Source: Eledone cirrhosa (taxonomy: Eukaryota). From it: a DNA stretch of 64,000 nt. Of this stretch, positions 11,296 through 60,315 are shown piece after piece; position 1 is the stretch's first letter; each line of letters starts with the position of its first letter. The notes under the pieces are model-generated. The model saw only the letters and a program-made list of their open reading frames with translations, searched no databases and was not told where the DNA came from. The stretch is taken from NCBI GenBank assembly GCA_964016885.1, contig OZ024741.1:413416001-413480000 (forward strand), read 5' to 3'. The position numbers were made by a program, and so were the translations under genes.

Positions 11296-12267
11296 ATGTT
11301 GACAAAGAATTATTTAATCTACCTTCTGTTGGCCACTTTGTTGCTCCTGGCCGTAATCCAGCCAGGAAATGCCCGGAGAAGGAAGAAAAAGCAAAGGAAA
11401 AAGAAACAAAAAAACCGAGCTGTGACTTACAACACCTCAACATGTGCCCCTATAATGCTGCCAATGTGTCGTAACTTGATCCCTTATTCGGTTACACAAA
11501 TTACAATGAAGAAAGAGGGTGCACTGATGACCCAAGGTCAGTTGTCATCGTTATTGGAACCATTATGGGCATATATGGATACAGAATGTTCTCCACAGTT
11601 CAGAGAGTTGGCTTGTGGTTATTATCTTCCAAAATGCAATGCTACAAGTGGTGCACCAATGAAACCATGCAGATCCGTATGCAGAGCTGCTAAAACTGGA
11701 TGTGGAAGTATTTTCAGTGCTCACAATATAAATTGGCCAAATGAATTGAAGTGCAGTAGCTTTCCAACTAAAAATTGTGTAAGTCCTTCAAATTTAACCC
11801 ATATTACACCAGTGGAGCAAACTGGGACCAGGTGTATTCTGAACACTATTCCAATGTGTGCCAATCTCACTCCAAAAACGAAGAATAAGAAATATGTTCT
11901 TGGAGTCTTACCCAATATGTTTTTACAGAACTCTCCAGAGAGAATTTTCAAAGAGATGAATAATTTCAAGGACCTCATTGCAACAAATTGTTCCCCAAAT
12001 CTTGCTTTCTTCATCTGTGGTGTTTATTTACCATTCTGTACTGACAACGAAGGTGCCGATAGTTTCCGTGTACCATGCCGGGAAGTGTGTGAAGAAGTTT
12101 ACAACGCATGCAGAGATGATTTGGTCCGAATCTCTGGAGTTGACTGGCCAAGTAAGTTTCAGTGTCATCGCTACCCTTCCAAGGAATCCACTAACAACCG
12201 GCTGCAATGTCTACAGCCAACTGAAATGGATATTATACGAAAAGGAACACTCCCTCCTTTAAATTAA
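11296..12267 (+). CDS. Secreted protein with two tandem Frizzled-type cysteine-rich domains (323 aa), sFRP/corin-CRD-like
   Basis: First ATG of ORF 11080..12267 is at 11296. Hydrophobic signal peptide MLTKNYLIYLLLATLLLLAVIQPGNA, then RRRKKKQRKKKQKNR, then two domains with 10 Cys each in Fz spacing (C.P...C..Y.P.C, PCR..C, WP...C..[FY]P). Stop TAA ends at 12267. Confidence 0.88.
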   Translation: MLTKNYLIYLLLATLLLLAVIQPGNARRRKKKQRKKKQKNRAVTYNTSTCAPIMLPMCRNLIPYSVTQITMKKEGALMTQGQLSSLLEPLWAYMDTECSPQFRELACGYYLPKCNATSGAPMKPCRSVCRAAKTGCGSIFSAHNINWPNELKCSSFPTKNCVSPSNLTHITPVEQTGTRCILNTIPMCANLTPKTKNKKYVLGVLPNMFLQNSPERIFKEMNNFKDLIATNCSPNLAFFICGVYLPFCTDNEGADSFRVPCREVCEEVYNACRDDLVRISGVDWPSKFQCHRYPSKESTNNRLQCLQPTEMDIIRKGTLPPLN

Positions 12268-13037: not shown

Positions 13038-13257
13038 GTATATATATATATAAGTTGACGGGACTAGCGTAAGGTTTCGCTGCTAGTTGCATCCCATATA
13101 TATATATACACACACATACATATATAATATATACATGCACATACATACATACATATATGTGTATGTATGTTCGCACGCTTTGTAACATGAACATTGATAC
13201 AAAAATAAAATTAACAATTATATTGCTATCTGAGCAGTTATAAGTTCTTACTTATTA

Positions 13258-14225
13258 AATATACCTGTAGGTTGTTATATATTGATATACCTGTAGGTTG
13301 TTATATATTGATATACATGTAGGTTGTTACATATTGATATACATGTTGGTTGTTACATATTGATATACCTGTAGGTTGTTATATATTGATATACATGTTG
13401 GTTGTTACATATTGATATACCTGTAGGTTGTTATATATTGATATACATGTTGGTTGTTACATATTGATATACCTGTAGGTTGTTATATATTGATATACAT
13501 GTAGGTTGTTACATATTGATATACATGTTGGTTGTTACATATTGATATACCTGTAGGTTGTTACATATTGATATACATGTTGGTTGTTACATATTGATAT
13601 ACCTGTAGGTTGTTATATATTGATATACCTGTAGGTTGTTATATATTGATATACATGTTGGTTGTTACATATTGATATACCTGTAGGTTGTTATATATTG
13701 ATATACATGTTGGTTGTTACATATTGATATACCTGTAGGTTGTTATATATTGATATACCTGTAGGTTGTTATATATTGATATACCTGTTGGTTGTTATAT
13801 ATTGATATACCTGTAGGTTGTTATATATTGATATACCTGTAGGTTGTTATATATTGATATACCTGTAGGTTGTTATATATTGATATACATGTTGGTTGTT
13901 ATATATTGATATACCTGTAGGTTGTTATATATTGATATACCTGTAGGTTGTTATATATTGATATACATGTTGGTTGTTATATATTGATATACCTGTAGGT
14001 TGTTATATATTGATATACATGTAGGTTGTTACATATTGATATACATGTTGGTTGTTACATATTGATATACCTGTAGGTTGTTACATATTGATATACATGT
14101 TGGTTGTTACATATTGATATACCTGTAGGTTGTTACATATTGATATACCTGTAGGTTGTTATATATTGATATACATGTAGGTTGTTATATATTGATATAC
14201 CTGTAGGTTGTTACATATTGATATA
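13258..14225. repeat. 26-bp minisatellite (atattgatatacctgtaggttgttat)
   Basis: Period 26 (13261 vs 13287), about 37 copies. Confidence 0.95.
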
Positions 14226-15029: not shown

Positions 15030-18000
15030 CATGGCCTAGTGGTAAGGGTGTTGGACTTACAATCATAATGTTATGGGTTCCATTGCTGGGCGGTGTTGTG
15101 TGTTGTGTTCTTGAGCAAAATACTTTATTTTACGTTGCTTCAGTATACTCAGCTGAAAATGAGTACCAGCAATAGGTGGGGGGTTTAACCCTGTGATTGA
15201 CTGGTGTCCTGTCCAGGGGTAGTCCAGCAATAGGTGAGGGTTTAACCCTGTGATGGACTGGTGTCCTGTCCAGGGGGAGTCCAGCAATAGGTGGGGGTTT
15301 AACCCTGCAATGGACTGGTGTCCTGTCCGGGGGTAGTCCAGCAATAGGTGAGGGTTTAACCCTGTGATGGACTGGTGTCCTGTTCAGGGGGAGTCCAGCA
15401 ATAGGTGGGGGTTTAACCCTGTGATGAACTGGTGTCCTGTTCAGGGGGAGTCCAGCAATAGGTGAGGGTTTAACCCTGTGATGGACTGGTGTCCTGTCCA
15501 GGGGGAGTCCAGCAATAGGTGGGGGTTTAACCCTGCAATGGACTGGTGTCCTGTCCAGGGGTAGTCCAGCAATAGGTGGGGGTTTAACCCTGTGATTGAC
15601 TGGTGTCCTGTCCAGGGGTAGTCCAGCAATAGGTGGGGGTTTAACCCTGTGATGGACTGGTGTCCTGTCCAGGGGGAGTCCAGCAATAGGTGGGGGTTTA
15701 ACCCTGCAATGGACTGGTGTCCTGTCCAGGGGGAGTCCAGCAATAGGTGGGGGTTTAATCCTGTGATGGGCTGGTGTCCTGTCCGGGGGTAGTCCAGCAA
15801 TAGGTGGGGGTTTAACCCTGTGATGGACTGGTGTCCTGTTCAGGGGGAGTCCAGCAATAGGTGGGGGTTTAACCCTGTGATGGATGGACTGGTGTCCTGT
15901 TCAGGGGGAGTCCAGCAATAGGTGGGGGTTTAACCCTGTGATGAACTGGTGTCCTGTTCAGGGGGAGTCCAGCAATAGGTGGGGGTTTAATCCTGTGATG
16001 GACTGGTGTCCTGTCCAGGGGTAGTCCAGCAATAGGTGGGGGTTTAACCCTGCAATGGACTGGTGTCCTGTCCAGGAGGAGTCCAGCAATAGGTGGGGGG
16101 TTTAACCCTGTGATTGACTGGTGTCCTGTCCAGGGGTAGTCCAGCAATAGGTGAGGGTTTAACCCTGTGATGGACTGGTGTCCTGTCCAGGGGGAGTCCA
16201 GCAATAGGTGGGGGTTTAACCCTGCAATGGACTGGTGTCCTGTCCGGGGGTAGTCCAGCAATAGGTGAGGGTTTAACCCTGTGATGGACTGGTGTCCTGT
16301 TCAGGGGGAGTCCAGCAATAGGTGGGGGTTTAACCCTGTGATGAACTGGTGTCCTGTTCAGGGGGAGTCCAGCAATAGGTGAGGGTTTAACCCTGTGATG
16401 GACTGGTGTCCTGTCCAGGGGGAGTCCAGCAATAGGTGGGGGTTTAACCCTGCAATGGACTGGTGTCCTGTCCAGGGGTAGTCCAGCAATAGGTGGGGGT
16501 TTAACCCTGTGATTGACTGGTGTCCTGTCCAGGGGTAGTCCAGCAATAGGTGGGGGTTTAACCCTGTGATGGACTGGTGTCCTGTCCAGGGGGAGTCCAG
16601 CAATAGGTGGGGGTTTAACCCTGCAATGGACTGGTGTCCTGTCCAGGAGGAGTCCAGCAATAGGTGGGGGTTTAATCCTGTGATGGGCTGGTGTCCTGTC
16701 CGGGGGTAGTCCAGCAATAGGTGGGGGTTTAACCCTGTGATGGACTGGTGTCCTGTTCAGGGGGAGTCCAGCAATAGGTGGGGGTTTAACCCTGTGATGG
16801 ATGGACTGGTGTCCTGTTCAGGGGGAGTCCAGCAATAGGTGGGGGTTTAACCCTGTGATGAACTGGTGTCCTGTTCAGGGGGAGTCCAGCAATAGGTGGG
16901 GGTTTAATCCTGTGATGGACTGGTGTCCTGTCCAGGGGTAGTCCAGCAATAGGTGGGGGTTTAACCCTGCAATGGACTGGTGTCCTGTCCAGGGGTAGTC
17001 CAGCAATAGGTGGGGGTTTAACCCTGTGATTGACTGGTGTCCTGTCCAGGGGTAGTCCAGCAATAGGTGGGGGTTTAACCCTGTGATGGACTGGTGTCCT
17101 GTCCAGGGGGAGTCCAGCAATAGGTGGGGGTTTAACCCTGCAATGGACTGGTGTCCTGTCCAGGAGGAGTCCAGCAATAGGTGGGGGTTTAATCCTGTGA
17201 TGGGCTGGTGTCCTGTCCGGGGGTAGTCCAACAATAGGTGGGGGTTTAACCCTGTGATGGACTGGTGTCCTGTTCAGGGGGAGTCCAGCAATAGGTGGGG
17301 GTTTAACCCTGTGATGGATGGACTGGTGTCCTGTTCAGGGGGAGTCCAGCAATAGGTGGGGGTTTAACCCTGTGATGAACTGGTGTCCTGTTCAGGGGGA
17401 GTCCAGCAATAGGTGGGGGTTTAATCCTGTGATGGACTGGTGTCCTGTCCAGGGGTAGTCCAGCAATAGGTGGGGGTTTAACCCTGCAATGGACTGGTGT
17501 CCTGTCCAGGAGGAGTCCAGCAATAGGCGGGGGTTTAATCCTGTGATGGGCTGGTGTCCTGTCCAGGAGGAGTCCAGCAATAGGCGGGGGTTTAATCCTG
17601 TGATGGGCTGGTGTCCTGTCCGGGGTAGTCCAGCAATAGGTGGGGGTTTAATCCTGTGATGGGCTGGTGTCCTGTCCAGGGGTAGTCCAGCAATAGGTGG
17701 GGGTTTAACCCTGTGATGGACTGGTGTCCTGTCCAGGGGGAGTCCAGCAATAGGTGGGGGTTTAACCCTGCGATGGACTGGTGTCCTGTCCAGGGGGAGT
17801 CCAGCAATAGGTGGGGGTTTAATCCTGCGATGGGCTGGTGTCCTGTCCGGGGGTAGTCCAGCAATAGGTGGGGGTTTAACCCTGTGATGGGCTGGTGTCC
17901 TGTCCGGGGGTAGTCCAGCAATAGGTGGGGGTTTAACCCTGTGATGGACTGGTGTCCTGTTCAGGGGAAGTCCAGCAATAGGTGGGGGTTTAACCCTGCG

Positions 18001-18122
18001 ATGGACTGGTGTCCTGTCCAGGAGGAGTCTTGTATTCTCAGTGGCTTCATGCCATGAAACTAGGATAAGCACCGGCCTGATGAGCCTTAAATGGCTTAAG
18101 ATAGACTTTAGACTTTAGATCT
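15030..18122 (+). mobile_element. tRNA-headed SINE split by an internal tandem expansion
   Basis: A-box 'tggcctagtgg' at ~15032, degenerate B-box, and core 'cttgagcaaaatactttattttacgttgcttcagtatactcagctg' shared with other SINEs here. The SINE-like 3' part 'gcttcatgccatgaaactaggataagcaccggcctgatgagcc...agactttagacttt' resumes after the array. Confidence 0.7.
15167..18028. repeat. 57-bp minisatellite (~50 copies) with a 517-bp higher-order period
   Basis: Unit ccagcaataggtgggggtttaaccctgtgatggactggtgtcctgtccagggggagt. Equivalent ORF ends at 16358/16875/17392 are spaced 517 bp. Confidence 0.95.
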
Positions 18123-27744: not shown

Positions 27745-30700
27745 TGTATGTATCTGGTTTACAATAGGCCACTGTATATCTGGTTTACAATAGGCCACTG
27801 TATATCTGGTTTACAATAGGTATACTGTATACATCTGTTTTACAATAGGTCACTGTATATCTAGTTTACAATAGGCCACTGTATGTATCTGGTTTACAAT
27901 AGGCCACTGTATATCAGGTTTACAAAAAGCCACTGTATATATCTGGTTTACAATAGGCCACTGTATATCTAGTTTACAATAGGCCACTGTATATCTGCTT
28001 TAGAATAGGTATACTGTATACATCTGGTTTACAATAGGCCACTGTATATCTGGTTTACAATAAGCCACTGTATACATCTGGTTTACAATAGGTATACTGT
28101 ATACATCTGGTTTACAATAGGCCACTGTATATCTGGTTTACAATAGGCCACTGTATATCTGGTTTACAATAGGCCACTGTACACATCTGGTTTATAATAG
28201 GTATACTGTATATATCTGGTTTACAATAGGCCACTGTATATCTGGTTTACAATAGGCCACTTTCTGTATCTGGTTTACAATAGGCCACTGTACACATCTG
28301 GTTTATAATAGGTATACTGTATATATCTGGTTTACAATAGGCCACTGTATATCTGGTTTACAATAGGCCACTGAATATCTGGTTAAAAAGGCCACTGTAC
28401 ATCTGGTTTACGATAGGTATACTGTATATCTGGTTTACAATAGGCCACTGTATATCTGGTTTACAATAGGCCACTGTATATCTGGTTTACAATAGGTATA
28501 CTGTATACATCTGGTTTACAATAGGCCACTGTATATCTGGTTTACAATAGGCCACTGTATACATCTGGTTTAGAATAGGTATACTGTATGTATCTGGTTT
28601 ACAATAGGCCACTGTATACATCTGGTTTAGAATAGGCCACTGTATATCTGGTTTACAATAGGCCACTGTATATCTGGTTTACAATAGGTATACTGTATAC
28701 ATCTGTTTTACAATAGGTCACTGTATATCTAGTTTACAATAGGCCACTGTATGTATCTGGTTTACAATAGGCCACTGTATATCAGGTTTACAAAAAGCCA
28801 CTGTATATATCTGGTTTACAATAGGTCACTGTATATCTAGTTTACAATAGGCCACTGTATGTATCTGGTTTACAATAGGCCACTGTATATCAGGTTTACA
28901 AAAAGCCACTGTATATATCTGGTTTACAATAGGCCACTGTATATCTAGTTTACAATAGGCCACTGTATATCTGCTTTAGAATAGGTATACTGTATACATC
29001 TGGTTTACAATAGGCCACTGTATATCTGGTTTACAATAGGCCACTTTATGTATCTGGTTTACAATAGGCCACTGTACACATCTGGTTTATAATAGGTATA
29101 CTGTATATATCTGGTTTACAATAGGCCACTGTATATCTGGTTTACAATAGGCCACTGAATATCTGGTTTACAATAGGTATACTGTATATCTGGTTTACAA
29201 TAGGCCACTGTATATCTGGTTTACAATAGGCCACTGTATATCTGGTTTAGAATAGGTATACTGTATGTATCTGGTTTACAATAGGCCACTGTATACATCT
29301 GGTTTACAATAGGCCACTGTATATCTGGTTTACAATAGGCCACTATATAAATCTGGTTTAGAATACTGTAGCGTAAAAGTTGGTGTTCATCAGGGCTCCG
29401 TTCTTAGCCCCCTACTATTTGTTATTGCTCTTCAGGCTATAACAGAGGAGTTCAAGACCGGCTGCCCATGGGAACTCCTATATGCAGATGATCTAACGCT
29501 CATAGTTGAATCAATGGCTGAACTAGAGAAGAAATTCCAAACATGGAAGCATGGCCTAGAATCAAAAGGCCTTAAAGTTAACTTGTCAAAGACTAAAGTT
29601 CTAGTTTGTAGGAAGGAAAATAGGGCACCGGTCCCATCTGGGAAATGGCCAACCTCAGTGTGTAGGAAAGGAGTAGGCAGAAACTCCATTTTATGTCCCA
29701 AATGCAAAGTATGGGTGCATAAAAGATGTAGTGGGATCACAGGTAAGCTAACTAAGAATATAGATTTTATATGTGGCCGGTGCTCTGGTGCAATAAGTAG
29801 CAGCAAGTGCCCACAGAATACTAGCTCATTCCATTGCACAGATGGTTCTATAGAAATAGTGGACACCTTCCATTACCTGGGTGACAAAATCAGCAGTGGT
29901 GGAGGGTGCTCTGAAAGTACAGTAGCTAGAGTCAGAACGGGATGGAAAAAGTTCAGAGAGCTTATGCCGCTAAAGGTTTCTCTCTAAAAATGAAAGGCAG
30001 GCTGTATGAAGCCTGCATACGAACAGCAATGTTGCATGGCAGTGAGACTTGGGCATTGTGTGCAGAGGATATACGCAAACTGGAGAAAAACGAAGCTTGC
30101 ATGCTCCGCTGGATGTGTAATAGTAATATACGTGAACGCCAAAGCATAAACGAACTAAGGGAGAAATTAGGAATAAGAGGGATCAGATGTTGTTTACTCG
30201 AGAGAAGACTACGTTGGTATGGTCATGTGATGCGCATGAAAGACGACAGCTGTATAAAAAAGTGTAGGGCGATAAAAATAGACGTTAGCCACGGAGTAGG
30301 CAGACCCAGAAAAACCTGGGATGACTTGATAAATTCCGACCTCACACACTTACACCTCTCCAAGACAATGTCACTGAACCGAGATCTTTGGCGCTACACA
30401 GTTATACAGAAGACCCGCCTTGCCTAAGTACAAAGTGAAAACCTACAGTCAGTAGGCACCTCTAACAAAAACACACCCCCGTCCCACTACCCCCACCCCA
30501 TCCACACCACCCCCTTGAATGTGCAGTTATGTTGGTACCACAACATCCAGTCCAAAAAAAATGAGGTTGTGTAGGTTGAATGACAAAAAAACACACAGTC
30601 CACGCTGTAATGTGGCCGTGTAGGTAACACGGTAAAAACCGCCCAGTCCACACTGTAAAAGTGGTTGGTGTTAGGAAGGGCATCCAGCCGTAGAAAACCC

Positions 30701-39610: not shown

Positions 39611-42600
39611 TCAGGTCACCAGTTGGTGCTACTGGTAACATGTATCCCAGTACAACCTGTCTCATGGTCGGGTCGTTGGCGACTAAACTGGCAACCCCAC
39701 CAAGATTTCTTGGTGAGGAGGGTGACTTTGGACATTCTGCAGGACTAAAAACAAAACCTGTCAAAGGGCAAAGGAACTCCTGGGAGCTCTTAAGAACTCT
39801 TGGAGTCAATGGCCATCCAAAACCAGCACGGTCCGCCGAAAGGCGCTGCAGTGCCGGAAAAGTCAACTTCCTGCTACTAGTATGCTGGTAAGCTAGTACA
39901 ACGTATCTCCAGACGGATAGAGTGGGTCCGTAGCTTTGGTTAGCGACTACTCTAGTGCTTGCAACACGAACAATTAGGGCGAGGGTATAAATGCCAGGTT
40001 GGTATCTGGCGCCGGGTAACCCACCACACGGAGGAGGAAGCACCTTCTTCAATACTTGGCTGTCAAATTCTTTCACATGTGTGTAGTAGTGGCGCCCACA
40101 CACATTATTAGCTATTTGAAAAGATGATGGATTTCGCAACTAACTGCACCAGGGTTCCTGTTCCTCAGGGAACCACACTATATGGTATACCTGTTGATAT
40201 AGGTCCAGCCCCTGCTTTCCAGGGTCTTGTTTCTGATCATAATGCACCTACAAAGGCATCGAATGATGATGAATCCTCAAATCTCAAGGGACGGGGTTCA
40301 TCTAATGGAGAAGAAACAGGTCCTAACCAAACAACAAGCAAATCTCGCCTGGCTAGCTGTAAAAAGCAAATAATAGTTAGCTCCTTGAACACCAGAACCC
40401 TCCTTCCAATAGGTAGACTCCAGGAGCTGGCAGAGAATGCCAAACTTCAGAACATTGACATCCTTGCGGTCCAAGAACACCGCTTTTTCCACCCAAAGGA
40501 TGATCTCAAGTATCACACCCTAGGATCCTACCCACTTGTCACCTCTTCAGCCACCAAGAACCCTGTCAATGCCTCCGTCGGAGGAGTCGGCTGCCTTCTC
40601 TCATCTAAAGCCAGCAATAATCTTCTGGGGATTGAAACAATCTCTCCCAGAATCTTGGTGCTTACACTAGAGGGCAATCCTAGAAGCACTGCGATATGTG
40701 TATACAGTCCTCATAACGCCTCTCCTGAGGATGAGGTAAGAGAATTCTACATGACCCTTCGCACAGTTGTTGAGCAAGTACCCTTACACAACTTTCTTAT
40801 CATCGCTGGAGACCTCAACGCTCAACTTGGCCCGGATGAAGTAAAGTTCACATACAATAGGGTTACTAACCGAAACGGGGAATATCTGAAGGACTTCATG
40901 GAAGAATTCAGTCTATTCAGCTCAAACAACAGCTTCATGAAGACCAGAGGCCGGCTTTGGACCTTCGAATATCCAAACCAAAAACGAGCTCAGATTGACT
41001 ATTTGATATTTTGCAAGAAATGGAGAAACTCAATCAAAGATTCTAGATCTTATTCCTCCTTTAGCTCTGTCGGCTCAGATCATCGAGTCATCTTGGCAAC
41101 AATCAAACTTAGTCTCAGGATATCCAAGAGGGCCGAACCTCATCCCATGAAAAGAATAGACTGGAAAGCCATTTCTTCCAACAAACAACTATCCAATAGC
41201 TTCACGCTTCAAGTCTATAACAGATTTCAATCTCTCTCAACTTCTGACATCAATGACAATAATATTGAGGATGTGTATGATTGTCTTAAGCAATCAACAG
41301 AGGAAGTTGCACTTGCTACCCTACCTAAAAAGAAAAGCCAAAGCCAAATGAAACCTAGTGCCCCAGAGAAGGTAGTTGAGGCAAGGGCCCATCTTAGGTC
41401 AATATCCCAATCTCACCATCAATCACCATCTCAAGGGAAAAAGATACAGCTTATCATGGCCAAAAAATCACTAGACGACGCTTATCTTAATGCTGAAGCC
41501 GACTATATCTCAGGTAGGATTGATCAGCTATCGCAACATCACATCAGCAAACACCATCATCTTGCTTGGAAGGTTGTCAAAGATCTTTCAGGCAAAAACT
41601 CAAACTCTGCAGTTAGAATCAAAGGAGGCTCTGCCAAAAAACGTCTTGAAAATTGGTCTGCTCATTTTAAAAACCTTCTAGGGAAAAAGGCCAGACTCCC
41701 TGATAACTATCAACTGCTATCCGTTCAGGTTTCAGAGCCTTTAGGAATCAACACCTCTCCTTTCACCATGCCTGAGCTCAAAGAAGCCATCAAACAGCTC
41801 AAAGCCTCAAAAGCCTTTGGGCCGGATAATATACCTACCCTGATTTGGAAGGATGAGCATTTCCACATCCTTTTGCTCAACCTATGTAACCATACTTTCG
41901 AGACCAATAAACCACCTAGCGTCTGGCATGCAGCTCAAATTATCCCCATGCCCCAAAAAGGAGATCTTTCTTTAGCCACCAACTATAGAGGAATTTCTCT
42001 CATGGCAATTGCTGCAAAAATATACAACAAGCTTCTCCTTAACCGCTTAATTCCATTTCTTGAGCCAATCCTTCGTAACAACCAGAATGGATTTAGGAGA
42101 GGTAGATCAACACTTAGCCAGATTCTCTGCCTTCGCCGATTTATAGAGGAGTCCCAAAACCGCAATCTAGACCTTGCACTCATCTTTGTTGATTTTTCAA
42201 AAGCCTTCGACTCAGTTGACAGGTCGGGGATGTTTGAAATTCTACAACTTTATGGGATTCCTGATAAAATCATCGCGGCCATACGTGTAATGTATACAGA
42301 TACCAAATCAACTGTCCTGACCCCAGATGGGGAAACACCACCTTTCTCAATCCTCGCTGGAATTTTACAGGGCGATACCCTTGCTCCGTATCTATTTATC
42401 ATTGTTGTGGATTATGTTTTGTGCATGTCTGTAGATAGGATTCAGGATAGGGGATACCAACTACAGCCTAGGAGAAGCTCACGCTACCCAGCAAAATACT
42501 TGACCGACACCGACTTTGCTGACGACATCGCATTGATCAGTCGGTCACTGGAAAATGCTGAGTGTCTTTTGAAGTCATTAGAGCAAGCGTCCAACTGTGT

Positions 42601-43270
42601 TGGACTGTACCTCAACGAATCCAAGACTGAGTATGTGAACAGATGCGCAAACAGCCCAAACTACCCCATCAGAACCCTTAATGGTACCACCCTTAAGCAG
42701 GTGGAAGATTACAAGTATCTTGGCTCATATATCTCCAAAAAAGATTTTCTAACCAGGAAGGGTATGGCATGGTCAGCGTGCAATGACATGCACGCCATAT
42801 GGACATCTCAACTTACCAACAAGCTAAAACTGGAAATATTCCAAGCAACCATTAAGCCCATATTACTTTATGGATCCGAAACTTGGACACTAACATCACA
42901 ACTTGAGAGGAGATTGGATGGCACATGTACCCGCCTCTTAATGAGAGTGCAAAACCTATCCTGGAAACGACATCCCACCTTGTCTAAAATCTATGGCAAA
43001 CTCCCTCGAGCCTCTGCCCTTCTAAAATCCCGGAGAGCTCAACTTGCTGGCCACTGTCACCGTGCCAGCAATGAAATCATATCCGCTCTCTTGCTCTGGA
43101 ACCCTGACTCTAGCCTGACTAGGAGTAGGAAGCTGTCATTCCCTGACGTTATCTCTAGGGATACGGGAATCAGTAGACGGGACCTGGGGGCAGCGATGGG
43201 GGACAGGGAATTCTGGGGCAGGAGAGTGAGATCTATCATCTCGACAGTAGTCGACGAATGATGATGATGA
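39611..43270 (+). mobile_element. Full-length RTE-clade LINE
   Basis: About 510-bp 5' UTR, single APE-RT ORF, (ATG)n tail, flanked on both sides by tatatatatatg (possible TSD). Confidence 0.92.
40124..43261 (+). CDS. APE endonuclease + reverse transcriptase, 1045 aa, uninterrupted
   Basis: APE motifs LNTRTL, VQEHR, GDLNA, QIDY, SDH; RT motifs NYRGISL, QNGFRRGRST, FVDFSKAFDSV, GILQGDTLAP, FADD, YKYLGS, LLYGSETW. Confidence 0.93.
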   Translation: MMDFATNCTRVPVPQGTTLYGIPVDIGPAPAFQGLVSDHNAPTKASNDDESSNLKGRGSSNGEETGPNQTTSKSRLASCKKQIIVSSLNTRTLLPIGRLQELAENAKLQNIDILAVQEHRFFHPKDDLKYHTLGSYPLVTSSATKNPVNASVGGVGCLLSSKASNNLLGIETISPRILVLTLEGNPRSTAICVYSPHNASPEDEVREFYMTLRTVVEQVPLHNFLIIAGDLNAQLGPDEVKFTYNRVTNRNGEYLKDFMEEFSLFSSNNSFMKTRGRLWTFEYPNQKRAQIDYLIFCKKWRNSIKDSRSYSSFSSVGSDHRVILATIKLSLRISKRAEPHPMKRIDWKAISSNKQLSNSFTLQVYNRFQSLSTSDINDNNIEDVYDCLKQSTEEVALATLPKKKSQSQMKPSAPEKVVEARAHLRSISQSHHQSPSQGKKIQLIMAKKSLDDAYLNAEADYISGRIDQLSQHHISKHHHLAWKVVKDLSGKNSNSAVRIKGGSAKKRLENWSAHFKNLLGKKARLPDNYQLLSVQVSEPLGINTSPFTMPELKEAIKQLKASKAFGPDNIPTLIWKDEHFHILLLNLCNHTFETNKPPSVWHAAQIIPMPQKGDLSLATNYRGISLMAIAAKIYNKLLLNRLIPFLEPILRNNQNGFRRGRSTLSQILCLRRFIEESQNRNLDLALIFVDFSKAFDSVDRSGMFEILQLYGIPDKIIAAIRVMYTDTKSTVLTPDGETPPFSILAGILQGDTLAPYLFIIVVDYVLCMSVDRIQDRGYQLQPRRSSRYPAKYLTDTDFADDIALISRSLENAECLLKSLEQASNCVGLYLNESKTEYVNRCANSPNYPIRTLNGTTLKQVEDYKYLGSYISKKDFLTRKGMAWSACNDMHAIWTSQLTNKLKLEIFQATIKPILLYGSETWTLTSQLERRLDGTCTRLLMRVQNLSWKRHPTLSKIYGKLPRASALLKSRRAQLAGHCHRASNEIISALLLWNPDSSLTRSRKLSFPDVISRDTGISRRDLGAAMGDREFWGRRVRSIISTVVDE

Positions 43271-44212: not shown

Positions 44213-45345
44213 TCATCATCATCATCATCATCAACGTTTAACGTCCGTGTTCCACGCTTGCATGGGTTTGGACGGGGGTAGTCCCACTTGAGGCAAGAGT
44301 GATTGTCTTGCTCGCATAGGACTGTCTGGCAGGTTTTCTACAGTTGGATGCCCTTCCTAACACCAACCACATTTACAGTGTGGGTCTGGGAGGTTTTTAC
44401 CGTGTTGCCTACACGGCCACATTACAGCGTGGACTGTGTGTTTTTTTGTCGTGACACCTACACGATCTCATTTGTTTCGGCCTCGATGGCGCGGCACCAA
44501 CATAACTTTACATAGAACGGGGTGGTGTGGATGGGGTAGGGGTGGGGGTGGTGGGACGGGGTGTATTTTGTTAGGGATGCCTACTGGCTGGAGTAGGTTT
44601 TACTATATATTTAGGTAAGGCAGGTCTTCTCTGTTACTGAGTACCGCCAAAGGTCTCGGTCCAGTGACATTGTCTTGGAGAGGTGTAAGTGTGTGATGTC
44701 GGAGTTTATCAGCTCGTCCCAAGTTTTTCTAGGTCTGCCTATTCCGTGACTACCGTCTATCTTTATTGCCCTGCACTTTGTTATACAGCTATCGACTTTC
44801 ATGCGCATCACGTGTCCATACCAACGTAGCCTTCTCTCGAGTAAACAACATCTGATCCCTCTTATCTCTAATTTTTTCCTTAGTTCGTTTATGCTTTGCC
44901 GTTCACGTATATTACTGTTACACATCCAGCGGAGCATGCAAGCTTCGTTCCTCTCTAGTCTGCGTATATCCTCTGCACACAATGCCCAGGTCTCACTGCC
45001 ATGCAGCATTGCTGTTCGTATGCAGGCATCGTACAACCTGCCTTTCATTTTTAGTGAGAACCCTTTAGCAGCTAATAGTGGTATAAGCTCTCTGAACTTT
45101 TTCCAACCAGTTCTGACTCTAGCTACAGTACTTTCAGAGCACCCTCCCCCACTGCTGATTTTATCGCCCAGGTAACGGAAGCTGTCCACTATTTCTATAG
45201 AACCCTCTGCGCAATTGAAAGAGCTAGTAGCTTGTGGGCACTTGCTGCTACTTATTGCACCAGAGCACCGGCCACATGTAAAATCTATGTTCTTAGTTAG
45301 CTTACCTGTGATCCCACTACATCTTTTATGCACCCATACTTTGCA
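44211..45345 (-). mobile_element. 5'-truncated RTE LINE copy in (TA)n
   Basis: ORF 44611..45333; near-identical to 58590-59720. Confidence 0.93.
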
Positions 45346-45601
45346 TATATATATATATATATATATATATTTTTAGAAACACACAGATACATGCGGACAC
45401 ACACATATATACATGAATGCATCCGCACCCAACTGTGAGTTAAGGGTGCCAACTTCACCGATGTTGCTCAATGAATGACTGGGACAGACCAATTCAGTTT
45501 GAACTAGACTGAACCAGTATCAGAGTTAAAAATACATTATGAAGAGAGAAGAAACATTTAGATATAATTAGTAATAAAATGTATCATACCTAAACTGTTC
45601 C

Positions 45602-48290: not shown

Positions 48291-51200
48291 CTAGCATTAA
48301 AGCCTGGCGTTGCTCGGGGTCAGTAAGTTACCAAAGTTAGGTTGCACCACCCATTTTATGGCAGCACTTTTTTGTCTGCCAGGCACTGGTTGAATGAATT
48401 GCAAACCTGCACTGCCGAAGCAGGAGCTGCGCCAGCAGTGACAATTGTAGTTTCGCCTATTGATATTATCTCTGTGTAAAGAAGTGTTCAAATTTATTGT
48501 TTCACAGAACTTGCGCAACATACGCGTAGATGATGCCAGCCGAACAACAGAGCTGCGATAGAGTTGTTCTGCATGACATGTTTTAACGGGGGAGGGGGTG
48601 GATTGAGGGAACCGCAAACAGGGCCTGAAAACATTGTCAAATTATGACAACCAAAAAAGAGGAAGAGGGGTATGGTTGGTGCATCATGTACGTTGGACGT
48701 AGAAGATGAGCCTGCTGCTGTGTCGACGGAGGGAGGGAAATAGAGCTGAGCGGAGGCCAGGTGTTGGTGAAGTGTGAAGTAATTGCAGGGAACCACCTAA
48801 AAATGTAAATCCCGTTATTAAAGCATTGTTCACCCTTTGAGAGTCGTACGGAGCTGAAATACTAACCTGTCCACGGTCCTCCGAGGCCCACCAAACGGGG
48901 GTTGGTGAAGAGCAACAGCTGATATTTGGGTAGGGTCGGAGTTGCAATGAAGCTTTGTAACGCCGCGAGAATCAGCCTTTGTACGGCAGATGGTGGGGAG
49001 TGTCCAGTGCACTGCAGTGAAGGTTAACCTACTTAGAAAGTACTCACGAAAAGGCAAAAAATAAAAAAATAAAAAAGTTATAAAATTAGAAATGGAGGTA
49101 ATCCTATAAAACCTCCTTGTACACAATGTTTTTTTGTTTTTCCTTGCGGAACGAACGCAAAATTATCACTCTTGCTGCCGACACGCGAGCAGCCAACATA
49201 AAGCTGACCATGAGAGAAACACGGCTCCCCCAAATGTATTCCCGTGACAGACAGTGTTTGCCCCTGCGCTTTGTTAATTGACATTGCGAAGCATGGCCTG
49301 ACCGGGAACTGGGACCTCCGAAATGTGAAAGGTAGGTCTGCTCCTGATGGGAAAAGATGCATCCTCGGTATGAGCACAACCTTGCCCCGACCGCACCCTG
49401 TAATTATCATGGCCTCAATCAGATTGGAAGCTAAGGACTTAACGACCAAATGTGTGCCATTGCATTGTTTCGGCGGAACCAAATTTCGAATGAGCATTAT
49501 AGGGGCACCAACTTTAAGTTTCAAAATGTGTGGGGGTAATCCGGGGGCTCAAAGGAATTTAGTACCTCTATTGGATAGTTGATGACGTCCTCGGGGTCAG
49601 GAGTTCTATCGATAGACTTATATACGTAGCCATCCCCAGGAATGAGTTTTAGCATTTGATTATTAATTTGGTGACAAAAGTTTTCCCAGACCCCCCCAGG
49701 AGCGTCCAGGAAAAAAATCCCCCCCAGCTTTGCCCTGGACAGAATTAACAACGGAGTTGTAAGCGAATTTCTGTTCTGGAAGGAGCTTTGGCTCATTCTC
49801 TGCTATGTACTGGGCAAGCTCGTCAACATTATAAGATGTCTCACGCAGCAAATCCGAAGACAGAGTGTTTGCGCCTTCCCGGTTTGTTGAAGGTAGGCCA
49901 TACACCGCCAACACAATACCTCCCATATCGAGAACAGTATCTTCGATTTCAAGCAGCGCCCTGTTGTAAATGAGGTCACTGTACCCGACCTTCATCAATG
50001 GGTTTAGCAACTGAGCATGACGCAGGAAATCTTCAGACATGTAATCTTTGTAGCTAAGCCATAAAGAGGCCGGACCACCCAAGTCACACCATAGGAGTAG
50101 AATAGCGAAAAGCGATCTTAGTCTTTTAGGAGATTTCAACAAAACGCCCTCTGCCATAGTGGCGCCCCATTGTGAATCATCCTCCAAAAGGCCACGCCTA
50201 AAGCAGGCTTCCCGGAAAGTATCACATAATTCACCGTCAACAGTTCTTATGTCTCAAAAGCTTTGTGGACCAAAACCCTCATGAAGGAGAATGCGCAGGT
50301 GAAAACACTCATGCTGGTTGGGAGGTACAGTGTACACTCTTCCTAGACAACTGTCAAACTTGACACCAGGATGTCCTTCAACATCCTGACCTGACTTCCT
50401 ATGCACCCAAGTGTTGTTTGACCACACGTAGTAGGACGGGACCTGAGGATATGAAAGTGTTTTTGCAAATGTGTCAAGTTGGCAAAGCGTAAAAAAAAAG
50501 TCAAAGTTGTTTCTTTGGGATTGGCCGCCAAATAAATGAACAGCAGTCTGTTGAGTAAAGTAAGCCCGTTGGTTGTTTTCCAAATGAACCGCTAGTTGTA
50601 TGATGGCGGGGTGCTTTTGGTGAAGTGGAAACCCGAATATCCGCCAAAAAGCTTCACCACTGCTGATATATCGACCTGCCAAGTACTCCGAGACCTCGTC
50701 CCTGCTATTGTCGTTTTGATGGCCGAACATGGCAGCGTTGGAACCCTTGTTAACATATTTACATATGAACTTTATCGACTTCACTGAATGACAGAACTCC
50801 ACATTTATATGAGCTTTGAAAGTTTTCATCAGAAATGGACAGTACGGGACCACCCACCTATTATCAACTTGATGACCTCGTAACATCATAGTGAATCCAC
50901 CGTTCTCAGGCCGCCTTTGACTGTACAGTGGGTATCCGTCGCCGCCAGTCTGGGTCTCCTCAACAAACCTCTTTGGGTATCGTTTAGTGCACACATGGTC
51001 CTTTGTGGCTTGAAGAGAACTCTTGAAAACCGGGACCGCACGGACCATGCACCATGTGTGTCTTCACAATCTCGTACAGCTGCCGGTCAACAACGGGGTC
51101 TGGTATTTCCACTGCAATGACGTCATCTATAACTGTAGGGTCTATTTTGGTGACCAACCAAACCAAAATGTGCGCGTGTGGCAACCCTCTCTTCTGCCAC

Positions 51201-54197
51201 TCAACAGTATACATGTGGGACTTAACAGGCCTGAAAACCTTCCCTTTTCTTATTAGATCAATTAGCTTAGCCAGCTTCTGCCTGAAAACCCTGGCAATAA
51301 TATCATGCTGATGGCAGTACTGCTGCCCTGGGATAAGTTCCCGCGTAACCTCAACCCACTTGGGGTTACACGTAAACGTCATAGCATCCTGTGTTCGCTC
51401 ATGCATGTACCGTGGCTCCCCCGTATATGTTGAGGGGAGAATGCACATTTTGCCGATGTTCCGGGGGTCAGTGTCATTCCTGATGCCGTCACACAAATGG
51501 ATGTAGCAGTCTGAGCGCAGCTGCTTCTGATTCAATTTTATGAAGCACAGTCTCTCCGACTCCATCTTTGCAGCCATGTCAACTACAAACTGGTGAAACA
51601 GTTCCCGTGACCTGTGCAGGGTGCTGAAATCGTTAGGCCTCGTCATGAAGCAGTATGAGTATAAAGCCATGCATGAAACAGTTTTAGATGTCGCAGCAGT
51701 GGGCTCGTTTGGTTTGCCCTGAGGAATGCCGGAATGGTACCTGTCTTCTCCGTATGCAAAAAGAAGGGGATACTGCAGGGCATCATATGAACGATGCGTC
51801 TCATTAATACGTCGAAGACCACTGTCACGACTTTGAAGAACTATGTCTCGCTTATTGTGCTGTTCACCATGGATAACTACGGTCACTTCATTGCACGAAG
51901 GAGCGTTATAATGGCGTGCGTACTCCCCAGAAGGTCTTTTGTCAGCATCGATGACAATGGTGAAGTTTGGTGAAGGATTTGTTTCCAATGCGTATTTGAA
52001 ACTGCGAATATAACTGTTGTGCTCATGAAGCATGTTTTGAAGACCGAGCAGTATGTCCCTTTCAAAAGTGTCAGCGTCAGTGTTTGCAGGTGTTGGAATA
52101 ACGCCGAACCGCGCATCAACTTGCCTACTGTAGTTAGAAATGAAGTAAATTTGAAGGAACGAAAGCTTGCAATTTTGTAGTGGCTGGAGCGACCCAATAA
52201 GATGGTACACCTGCCCCTGGACCTTGAAAGTAGGCACCCAACCACTTTCTCTGACAACGTTAGCCCCGAAAGAAGTCATTTGAAATGCACAATTGTACTT
52301 CCTGATGAGTTGAAGGAGTTTGGATGACCTTGAGGTAGAACCAGTAAGTAGTTCCTTCAAAGCTCTAGTGGTTCCCCAAGAGGGGGCAAGCTGACCTTAC
52401 CGTTTAAGCAGCACATTGCAGGTGGCTCCCCAGCCCACTTTTTAGCATTGCAGAATTTGCAATTGAAGCGCATTTCCCCTATATTTATGTCGGCACAAAT
52501 CGAGTAGTTAACGTTGGGCTCATACTTGAAAGCCCGTAGGTGCCAGTATGGGCTGTTGGGGCTCGTCACACCGCGGGCAGCTTCTTGTCGTCGACTGTTC
52601 CGCTCCAGCGTAGAATGTTGCTCCTGTGGGTCGTGGGAAGCTCTCGCAGCAGTAGCAGAAGCCACCCTTGCAATCCTAATGGAGTGCCCGTTTGCATCTT
52701 CAGAAGCCATGGAAGCAGTCATAGCGGCAGCGTTCCTAGCAAGGCGATTCGTCCGCCGTTACAAACCTTCCAAAGCCCTGGAAGCAGCAGTAGCCGCAGC
52801 GTTTCTAGTCAGTTGAGCCACCCTTTGTTCCGGGCCCTCTGAAGCCCTGGAAGCAGCAGTAGCAGCAGCGTTTCTATTCAGGCGAGTCGACCTTTGTTCC
52901 GGGCCCTCTGAAGCCCTGGAAGTAGCAGTAGAAGCGTTTTTTTTGGAATGACGTATCGCCCGCTCTGAATCGCACATCGCAGTACGTCTCGAGGCGTCGT
53001 GTGAAGCCATCTTGGCTAGGCGTGCAGTGCGTTGTTGAAAACTTTCAGCAGCTCTGCATTCCGCTGAACGTAAGGTGCTCTGTGAAAGTCTTAAAGCAGT
53101 TTCCTCGGGGGACTCGTTTGCTGTAATCGCCCTCTGCGCCGCCGCTGACGCGGTATGGCGACCGAGGCGACTTCTCTTTTTAGGTGGCATTTTATGTGAA
53201 AAAGAAAGGGTGAAAGTTACTTCTACAGCAAAATTGCCTTTGAAAGAATAAGGCTGAAAACTGTCTGCGTCCCGCAGGGGGGAAAATGGGAGAACGAACG
53301 GCAAATAAATAACTTACAGTTGGTTGGAAGCGCGCTTCTGTCAGCAATTTGAAGTTGTTTGGCTAAAAATCCCTATGTAGTTTTTTTTTTTACTCAATAA
53401 ACGTGTAAATATGTTATACACAAAATGTAATTGCGTGTGAGTTGAATGATAGATGTTTTAAAAAAAGATTTTAAGCGTATATAAGAGATTGTTGAATAAA
53501 TTTATCTGTTGCTTTTGAATAATTGTATTTGGTATAAAATGTAAGCGTTATGTATTTTGGATTGGCAGTATCGGTAGAGGGTCGGACGCCATGCATTCCA
53601 GCATAGTTACGTCCCTTTACCATCTGAGTTCAAATCCCGCCGAGGTTGACTTTGCCTTTCATCCTTACGGGGTCAATAAAATAAAGTACCAGTAATACAC
53701 TGGGTAATTTGCTGGCCTTGTGCCTAAAGTAGAAACAGTTATGTATTTAACGTTTGTCTCTGTCTCTCACTCTCTAGCTCACTCCTTTATTTTTTTCTCT
53801 CTTTCTAAAGGAAATTATTAAGAAGTGGGTTTATAAGTGTCATGTATTTAACGTTTGTCTCTGGCTCACTCCTTTATTTTTCTCTCTCTCTCTCTCTAAA
53901 GGAAATTAGTAAGAAGTGGGTGGGTTGCAGCATGTATTTTTTTTTTTTTTCGATTTTTAAGGGGAGTTAGGCAGAGTAAATCAGAAGGTATTATAGGGGT
54001 AAAGCGTCATGTGTTTAGTTTTATCGATTATTTCCGTAATTGTGGGTGAGTGTGAATGAAATAAATAGTCGTTGACTTAAGTTAGATCATTTACAACATT
54101 TTTACAGACTTTGAGTCGAAACGGTTTGAAATTGTGCAAATGTATAAACATGGAACATGCACACACACAACAACAACAACAATCTACCTTTTATAGA
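48291..54197 (-). mobile_element. Helitron, decayed autonomous type
   Basis: 3' end on - reads cccgagcaacgccagg(hairpin)...gCTAG|T at 48291. Probable 5' end A|TCTATAAAAGG at 54197 is less certain. RepHel coding fragments lie inside. Confidence 0.85.
49104..53190 (-). pseudogene. Helitron RepHel (HUH Rep + Pif1-like helicase), broken by stops, frameshifts and deletions
   Basis: MPPKKR start at 53190; [97 protein letters not shown] are spread over different frames. Confidence 0.93.
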
Positions 54198-58589: not shown

Positions 58590-60141
<1,552 letters not shown>

Positions 60142-60315
60142 AAAAAGCGATGATATCGAAAATGCAACAGGAGTCTTATTTTTTAAAAAATATATATATT
60201 TATTTGGTTCCTTTACCGGTTTCGCAGTTCTTCTGCTTTTCAAAAGGTGAGTTGAGATGGAGGGTCTGTGGTTTTTCTCACATCAGAAAAACCACAGACC
60301 CTCCATCTCAACTCA

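What the first reader, a model, noticed from the sequence alone, without database searches (positions are those of the whole stretch)
11296..12267. Secreted tandem double-Frizzled-CRD protein with a polybasic N-terminus and no NTR or TM domain
Seen: signal peptide, RRRKKKQRKKKQKNR, two complete 10-Cys Fz domains, then a stop, all in one coding exon. Known: sFRPs are CRD+NTR, Frizzleds are CRD+7TM, and corin has two CRDs inside a membrane protease, so this architecture fits none of them. Inference: a bivalent Wnt or lipid-ligand binder, with the basic tract standing in for the heparan-sulfate binding of NTR. CRD2 keeps the LPN motif and CRD1 has lost it, which hints at divergent specificities.
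Basis: partly seen in the sequence, partly recalled or inferred. Interest (0 to 1): 0.75.

Follow-up and report, generated by a model that had tools for sequence, protein, structure and literature searches.

The report
Mollusc-wide twin Frizzled-domain secreted protein
This octopod gene encodes a small protein of two Frizzled-type domains behind a positively charged stretch, with relatives in four mollusc classes for which we found no study; it is likely secreted and likely tunes Wnt developmental signals at cell surfaces.

Summary
The ORF at 11296-12267 encodes 323 aa: an N-terminal hydrophobic leader, a basic tract, two 10-Cys Fz domains and a stop. It has no NTR, TM or protease part. It is not an orphan. 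It belongs to a family with named members in 15 species of cephalopods, gastropods, bivalves and a chiton, all carrying only automatic names such as mom-5-like, corin-like or uncharacterised. New here: the two CRDs are only 26% alike, the linker is 15-19 residues in 34 of 35 members, and AlphaFold predicts one fixed unit (pTM 0.87). Lipid-groove positions stay mostly hydrophobic. Best reading (0.5): a secreted, heparan-sulfate-tethered, sFRP-like Wnt modulator; binding is untested. NTR-less secreted multi-CRD Wnt antagonists are known (sea urchin sFRP-1), so this is a new variant of a known kind.

The parts
11296..12267 (+). Complete coding sequence in one open frame, 323 aa + TAA
   Evidence: full-length match to relatives
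11296..11373 (+). Predicted signal peptide, residues 1-26 (cleavage after G-N-A inferred)
   Evidence: hydropathy; 19 of 19 full-length members examined have an N-terminal hydrophobic segment; SignalP not run
11374..11418 (+). Basic tract, residues 27-41, with several XBBXBX heparin-binding-type patterns (pattern recalled, counted); predicted disordered
   Evidence: pLDDT under 50
11443..11778 (+). CRD1, C50-C161: basic Fz domain with family marks W91, M94, D95, R103
11500..11532 (+). Remodelled CRD1 loop (residues 69-79): LPN lost, 2-residue insertion; cephalopod clade only
11779..11832 (+). Inter-CRD linker, 18 residues; 15-19 residues in 34 of 35 rows; predicted ordered
   Evidence: block pLDDT 79-89
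11833..12210 (+). CRD2, C180-C305: Fz domain with LPNMFxQ and KxQCHRYP family marks and the more canonical lipid groove
12211..12267 (+). Short C-terminal tail and stop; no TM or GPI-type hydrophobic end

Best explanation
The gene encodes a two-Frizzled-domain protein of a mollusc family that is likely secreted, likely held on heparan sulfate by its basic surface, and likely binds lipid-modified Wnt to restrict or shape its signalling, as sFRPs do. Shown: ORF, two intact Fz domains, no NTR or TM, conservation across four mollusc classes, conserved positive charge and conserved linker length. Predicted: the two CRDs pack as one rigid unit. Inferred: CRD2, with the more Frizzled-like groove, is the main palmitoleate/Wnt site; basic CRD1 and the Lys/Arg tract do the matrix-anchoring job that the NTR domain is thought to do in sFRPs (recalled), and CRD1 may also cover the lipid tail. 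Not tested: secretion, heparin binding, Wnt binding, and the sign of the effect.
For: (1) Conservation: 15 named species in four classes, and 36 proteins in the two family CRD groups, none longer than 383 aa. (2) CRD type: the family profile scores Wnt-binding CRDs highest, with FZD5 126 bits, FZD8 118-121, FZD7 104-108, sFRP3 99, Sizzled 70 and Smoothened 47 or less. The model's CRD2 aligns to the FZD4 CRD at Z 16.8, rmsd 1.8, 119 residues, against Z about 9-11 for MuSK, ROR and Smoothened. (3) Groove: FZD4 palmitoleate residues F82, L85, L132, F135, F137 (PMC5458758 passages) map to F224, L227, L276, S280, V282 in CRD2 and to L90, Y93, F140, H143, I145 in CRD1. In family CRD2 the F82 site is F/Y in 20 of 20 and the L85 site is L in 19 of 20 (read from the printed alignment). 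(4) Charge: pI 8.3-10.1 in 19 of 19 full-length members; CRD1 net charge at least +5 in 21 of 24, against 1 of 31 CRD2 and 39 of 458 other CRDs. (5) Precedent: sea urchin sFRP-1 (4 CRDs + Ig, no NTR) antagonises Wnt1/Wnt8-Fzl5/8 signalling (PMC5778778 abstract and passages). (6) Wnt ligands are present in the genome.
Against: No functional, localisation or expression data exist for any member. The CRDs are only 24-35% identical to the genome's own Frizzled CRDs. The F135 groove site is hydrophobic in only 10 of 20 CRD1 and 10 of 18 CRD2 rows, and the L85 site is a bulkier Y/F in 17 of 20 CRD1, which could narrow that groove. The most conserved non-cysteine residues are family-specific (W91, D95; G242, K287, H291), which fits a different partner as well as a domain interface. 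CRD-bearing proteins can act outside Wnt (Sizzled, corin; recalled). Related sequences share traits by descent, so the counts are not independent events.
Confidence: 0.5

Rival explanations
1. A secreted two-CRD module that binds a non-Wnt protein partner (a protease, receptor or matrix protein) through its family-specific conserved face, as Sizzled does with Tolloid proteases (recalled).
For: Residues nearly invariant in the family but rare in 478 other CRDs: W91 26/27, D95 26/27, G242 32/32, K287 32/32, H291 31/32, Q211 31/31. The two domains are predicted to form one fixed surface. Identity to Frizzleds is low.
Against: Those residues may simply form the CRD1-linker-CRD2 interface. Groove residues stay largely hydrophobic, and the closest solved CRDs are Wnt receptors.
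Confidence: 0.3
2. A secreted carrier or sensor of a free lipid or sterol, using CRD grooves without Wnt.
For: Fz CRDs bind free fatty acids across two grooves (PMC5458758, PMC6938638 passages), and a pre-paired tandem could enclose such a lipid.
Against: The sterol-binding Smoothened CRD scores far lower than Frizzleds (47 vs 126 bits). The basic tract suggests surface retention rather than transport.
Confidence: 0.1
3. A cationic structural, mucus or defence protein in which the CRDs are only a disulfide scaffold.
For: Strong conserved positive charge, with a tract whose position and sequence vary.
Against: Both CRDs and the linker length are strictly kept. There is one locus in this genome rather than an expansion (counts are lower bounds).
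Confidence: 0.07
4. An exon of a larger corin- or Frizzled-like gene, or a dead retrocopy.
For: The coding region has no intron, one relative is auto-named corin-like, and a GTAAG lies at 12152 inside CRD2.
Against: Relatives start and stop at matching places, and no family member among the best 150 of 3087 hits exceeds 383 aa. tblastn of 162 CRD-containing sequences against the window plus 10 kb flanks gave 549 hits, all at this ORF. The 145 longest of 190 other plus-strand frames gave only retroelement-type Pfam hits. It is the only family locus found in the genome and is intact at 80% identity to Argonauta.
Confidence: 0.03

Closest known systems
Sea urchin sFRP-1 (Strongylocentrotus; Khadka et al. 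2018, PMC5778778, abstract and passages read)
   Same: Signal sequence, tandem 10-Cys Fz CRDs, no NTR, no TM; a shown Wnt antagonist
   Different: It has four CRDs well conserved with one another plus an Ig domain. Here there are two CRDs 26% alike, no Ig, and a basic tract or basic CRD1. Orthology is not shown.
sFRP1/2/5 and sFRP3/4
   Same: Secreted, soluble, about 300 aa, Fz-type CRD plus a second module, basic character (NTR basicity recalled)
   Different: The second module is a CRD, not NTR. The CRDs do not group with the genome's two sFRP1/2/5-like CRDs (my label). No sFRP3/4 reference was in the tree.
Platynereis fzCRD-1 to -3 and the Aplysia CRD-only gene (Bastin et al. 2015, PMC4669655, abstract and passages read)
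   Same: Lophotrochozoan secreted CRD-only proteins proposed as Wnt modulators
   Different: Described in the passages read as CRD-only, with fzCRD-1 a single CRD of 208 aa, and as lineage-specific. This family has two CRDs and spans four mollusc classes. The accession of their Aplysia gene could not be checked because the supplement tables are images.
Frizzled 5/8 CRD and lipid-bridged Frizzled CRD dimers (PMC5458758, passages read)
   Same: Best-scoring solved sequences, same fold, hydrophobic groove sites
   Different: No 7TM. The two CRDs are on one chain. Whether their grooves lie end to end as in the dimers could not be read from the model.
Corin
   Same: Two Fz CRDs in one chain; source of one automatic name
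   Different: No TM, LDLa, SRCR or protease domain, and the CRDs are adjacent.

Membership tests
Fz CRD domain (PF01392) | Ten conserved cysteines and a Pfam score over the cut-off | tested here: met
   2 x 10 Cys; 144 bits against a cut-off of 32, two stretches
Fz CRD domain (PF01392) | Frizzled CRD fold | tested here: met
   pLDDT 90.6 model; Foldseek E 5e-9 to FZD8; Z 16.8, rmsd 1.8, 119 aligned to FZD4
Wnt-binding CRDs | Hydrophobic palmitoleate groove residues | tested here: inconclusive
   Four of five FZD4 sites are hydrophobic in each CRD of this protein; the F135 site is polar; the CRD1 L85 site is Y. Sequence mapping only.
Wnt-binding CRDs | Binds Wnt | not testable with these tools
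   Needs a binding assay with lipidated Wnt
sFRP | Signal peptide, no TM | tested here: met
   Hydropathy only
sFRP | C-terminal NTR domain after one CRD | tested here: not met
   A second Fz domain fills this place, followed by a stop 18 residues later
sFRP | CRD groups with sFRP1/2/5 | tested here: not met
   The genome's sFRP1/2/5-like pair (L006, L013; my label) forms its own 100/91 group apart from both family CRDs; the backbone is unresolved
sFRP | CRD groups with sFRP3/4 | tested here: inconclusive
   No sFRP3/4 sequence in the trees. sFRP3 scores 99 bits against 126 for FZD5. For the oyster homologue, the Atlas feature hit 'sFRP3/4 fragment' ties at 0.92 with a generic Fz cluster.
Frizzled receptors | Seven-pass membrane domain | tested here: not met
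   No TM segment, no PF01534, no such exon in 84 kb
Corin | TM anchor, LDLa repeats, SRCR and serine protease domain | tested here: not met
   exons under 51 codons or beyond the flanks were not covered
Sea urchin sFRP-1 type | Secreted tandem CRDs without NTR or TM | tested here: met
Sea urchin sFRP-1 type | Four similar CRDs plus an Ig domain | tested here: not met
   Two CRDs, 26% identical, no Ig

The most novel reading that the evidence does not exclude
Molluscs invented a single-chain, pre-paired CRD clamp: two anciently specialised Fz domains locked so that their grooves enclose the Wnt palmitoleate, like the 2:1 Frizzled-CRD dimers, and tethered to heparan sulfate. It would be an overlooked phylum-specific Wnt trap or carrier, whose first domain was remodelled in cephalopods.
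Probability: 0.2. Interest if true: 0.75.

Novelty: new variant of a known kind. Interest (0 to 1): 0.45.

Why it matters
Surveys of mollusc Wnt regulators list four Frizzleds and sFRPs, with sFRP3/4 often lost or divergent (PMC4669655). This family hides under misleading automatic names (mom-5-like, corin-like, frizzled-10-like) yet is kept in chitons, gastropods, bivalves and cephalopods. If it modulates Wnt, it is a missing part of mollusc patterning, testable in cuttlefish, oyster or snail embryos. If the CRD pair is rigid, it is a natural single-chain test of the idea that Wnt lipid is bound by two CRDs.

Tried and rejected
Expression: no RNA holder was listed. One run of unrecorded kind (X1) has a single contig over 11099-12395 with no gap or joint, at depth 659 against about 3 in X2. 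This would fit an unspliced transcript if X1 is RNA, but its kind is unknown and contigs do not show level, so it is not counted as evidence. The 5' and 3' transcript ends stay unmapped; AATAAA at 13204 and ATTAAA at 13254 are only candidates. Complex prediction with Octopus bimaculoides Wnt4 returned no answer (score 0.01, alignments not used, no lipid). The first fold from 9 sequences was poor (pLDDT 60, pTM 0.44) and was replaced by the 42-sequence fold. No solved chain aligned over both domains in the wide fold search. Origin of the CRDs: the tree backbone is unresolved; sisterhood of CRD1 and CRD2 is neither shown nor rejected (p-AU 0.24), and an sFRP3/4 origin is untested. The Atlas could not read this protein; the oyster homologue gave only generic Fz clusters. 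Ten literature searches found no paper on this family. Janda 2012 and Pei and Grishin 2012 were not held, Yan 2014 was not read, and 3 of 6 supplements of PMC4669655 are unreadable images; any of these may list a member. The scan's earlier findings returned nothing.

Full report
Observation. Window 11296-12267 (+) is one open frame of 323 codons plus TAA. It sits in repeat-rich DNA whose other coding stretches with a Pfam hit are transposon-derived. The leader is hydrophobic (19-mer 2.02 at residues 6-24, nothing else over 1.42), the basic tract is residues 27-41, and twenty cysteines form two sets of ten. Pfam gives Fz twice and nothing else over its cut-off. The signal peptide is inferred from hydropathy. 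A basic cluster right after a hydrophobic segment could in principle affect topology, but twenty conserved cysteines, five NxS/T sites and the same leader in relatives without the tract point to the secretory route (inference).

It is a whole gene. The closest relatives are full-length proteins of the same size: Argonauta hians 80%, an unnamed record 72%, Octopus sinensis 70% (8 hits among 2351 candidates), so the window is from an octopod-like cephalopod. The genome search finds one such locus (lower bounds). tblastn of 162 CRD-containing sequences against the window and 10 kb on each side gave 549 hits, all at this ORF, and the 145 longest of 190 other non-repetitive plus-strand frames carry no receptor or protease domain. 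Short or distant exons are not excluded.

It belongs to a mollusc family. A profile search gave 3087 hits, of which I saw the best 150. In a FastTree of 537 CRDs cut from these, from the other fetched proteins and from the genome's own loci, the first domains of the family form a 27-tip group (0.993) and the second domains a 32-tip group (0.999). The 36 parent proteins are at most 383 aa. Of the 35 besides this one, 15 are named directly or through a cluster member, and all 15 are molluscs: Argonauta, Octopus, Arion, Lymnaea, Biomphalaria, Aplysia, Littorina, Haliotis, Patella, Lottia, Liolophura, Argopecten, Pinctada, Mya and Crassostrea. Twenty are unnamed, so a limit to molluscs is suggested, not shown. 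Names are automatic and conflicting. The family tree has a 6-row cephalopod group (SH-aLRT 100), with the chiton next to it, and at least two gastropod lineages. In a careful 78-row tree CRD2 is solid (100/99), while the 14 CRD1 rows fall in a weaker group (81/82) that also holds 9 other rows, several long-branched. The backbone is open, and CRD1-CRD2 sisterhood is not rejected (p-AU 0.24). Subfamily labels for the genome's own Frizzleds, sFRPs and Smoothened are mine, from recalled features.

What is conserved. CRD1 and CRD2 are 26% identical to each other but 38% and 48% to their oyster counterparts, so they specialised before the classes split (inference). The linker between C10 of CRD1 and C1 of CRD2 is 15-19 residues in 34 of 35 rows that could be scored, out of 42 aligned. 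An extra linker cysteine occurs with an extra cysteine after LPNMFxQ in 8 rows, neither occurs in 27, and one never occurs alone. This suggests a staple between linker and CRD2, though the 8 rows are related gastropod-type sequences. With 42 sequences AlphaFold2 gives pLDDT 90.6 and pTM 0.87 over residues 45-312. A pTM that high over two equal domains implies a confident relative orientation (inference; PAE not seen; the 9-sequence run gave 0.44). All 19 full-length members examined are basic (pI 8.3-10.1). CRD1 has net charge of at least +5 in 21 of 24 domains, against 1 of 31 CRD2 and 39 of 458 other CRDs; domains under 100 residues were dropped (3, 1 and 20). The N-terminal basic extension is present in 14 of 20 full-length members; Patella, Aplysia, Argopecten, Pinctada, Mya and Crassostrea lack it and have basic CRD1 ends or linkers instead. 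So positive charge is the conserved trait, not the tract's place. The LPN loss in CRD1, with a 2-residue insertion, is in 6 of 6 cephalopod-group rows and 0 of 14 others.

Ligand site. The family profile ranks FZD5 and FZD8 first (118-126 bits), then FZD7, FZD10, FZD2, FZD4 and sFRP3 (96-108), Sizzled (70) and Smoothened (47 or less); fold searches agree. Mapping the FZD4 palmitoleate contacts from PMC5458758 (passages) through the genome's Fz4-like gene: CRD2 keeps F/Y at F82 (20 of 20) and L at L85 (19 of 20), read from the printed alignment because two rows in the count table were mis-split fragments. CRD1 is hydrophobic at F82 (19 of 20) and L132 (20 of 20) but has Y/F at L85 (17 of 20). 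The F135 site is hydrophobic in only about half of either domain. Family-specific near-invariant residues (W91, M94, D95, R103; N183, G203, F209, Q211, G242, K287, H291, R292) could be the domain interface or a partner site.

Mechanism. Best reading (0.5): a secreted, heparan-sulfate-tethered, sFRP-like Wnt modulator in which CRD2 is the main lipid/Wnt site, and basic CRD1 plus the tract anchor and perhaps cap it. Rivals are a non-Wnt protein partner (0.3), a free-lipid carrier (0.1), a cationic structural or defence protein (0.07) and a gene fragment (0.03). No binding, secretion or expression is shown here.

Comparison with the known. It fails the defining tests of sFRP (no NTR), Frizzled (no 7TM) and corin. 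It works most plausibly like sea urchin sFRP-1, which has four tandem CRDs, an Ig domain and no NTR and antagonises Wnt1/Wnt8-Fzl5/8 signalling. That paper also notes that novel secreted CRD proteins are not uncommon (PMC5778778, abstract and passages). CRD-only proteins are also described in Platynereis and Aplysia (PMC4669655, abstract and passages) and in ctenophores and sponges (PMC2959043, passages). In my own hits, many unrelated proteins consist of 2 to 13 Fz domains only. Passages of PMC7458405, PMC6938638 and PMC6581508 showed no mention of this family. Ten searches found no paper on it, within a library that lacks most subscription journals and with some supplements unreadable.

Verdict. 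A real, conserved gene, with no study found. The points of interest are its spread across four mollusc classes, the two anciently specialised domains in a predicted fixed unit, and the cephalopod remodelling of CRD1. New variant of a known kind; interest 0.45.

Noticed in passing
window 40112-43261 (+): 1049-aa open frame with endonuclease and reverse transcriptase domains: a long LINE-type ORF.
   Followed up: partly
window 49078-53313 (-): Broken Helitron: Rep-type and Pif1 pieces in several frames, with an STPR-repeat segment at its start.
   Followed up: partly
window 29313-30427 (+), 44611-45372 (-), 58986-60182 (-); L042:6078-6380 (+): Several copies of a LINE fragment in which a PHD-like finger follows the RT domain (the 44611 copy by likeness of translation only).
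   Followed up: no
window about 13260-14220 and 15060-18110: Long minisatellite arrays downstream of the gene; periods not measured.
   Followed up: no
L012 and L013 (G000:C23, about 44 kb apart): Two sFRP1/2/5-like CRD exons in tandem (my label; they group at 100/91). I recognised no sFRP3/4-like CRD among the 18 Fz matches.
   Followed up: partly
L007 (G000:C18): A fifth, divergent single-exon Frizzled-like ORF (613 aa) with a Thr/Pro/Glu-repeat stalk after the CRD.
   Followed up: no
G000:C906 13056-18238 (+) and 44058-51252 (-) (L030; L017, L018, L020): Wnt exons lie about 26 kb from a convergent run of three CRD exons, two nearly identical.
   Followed up: no
P0010 (Penaeus chinensis) and P0011-P0017, P0019: Proteins of 900-1800 aa made almost only of 6-13 Fz domains; large CRD-only arrays seem widespread.
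   Followed up: no
P0177 (Mya arenaria) CRD1: Cysteines 1 and 5 are lost together, as expected if they pair (pairing recalled).
   Followed up: no
P0113, P0119, P0121, P0137: Single-CRD pieces called on contigs of other species hint at an intron between the CRDs elsewhere, whereas this copy has none in its coding region; not tested on DNA.
   Followed up: no
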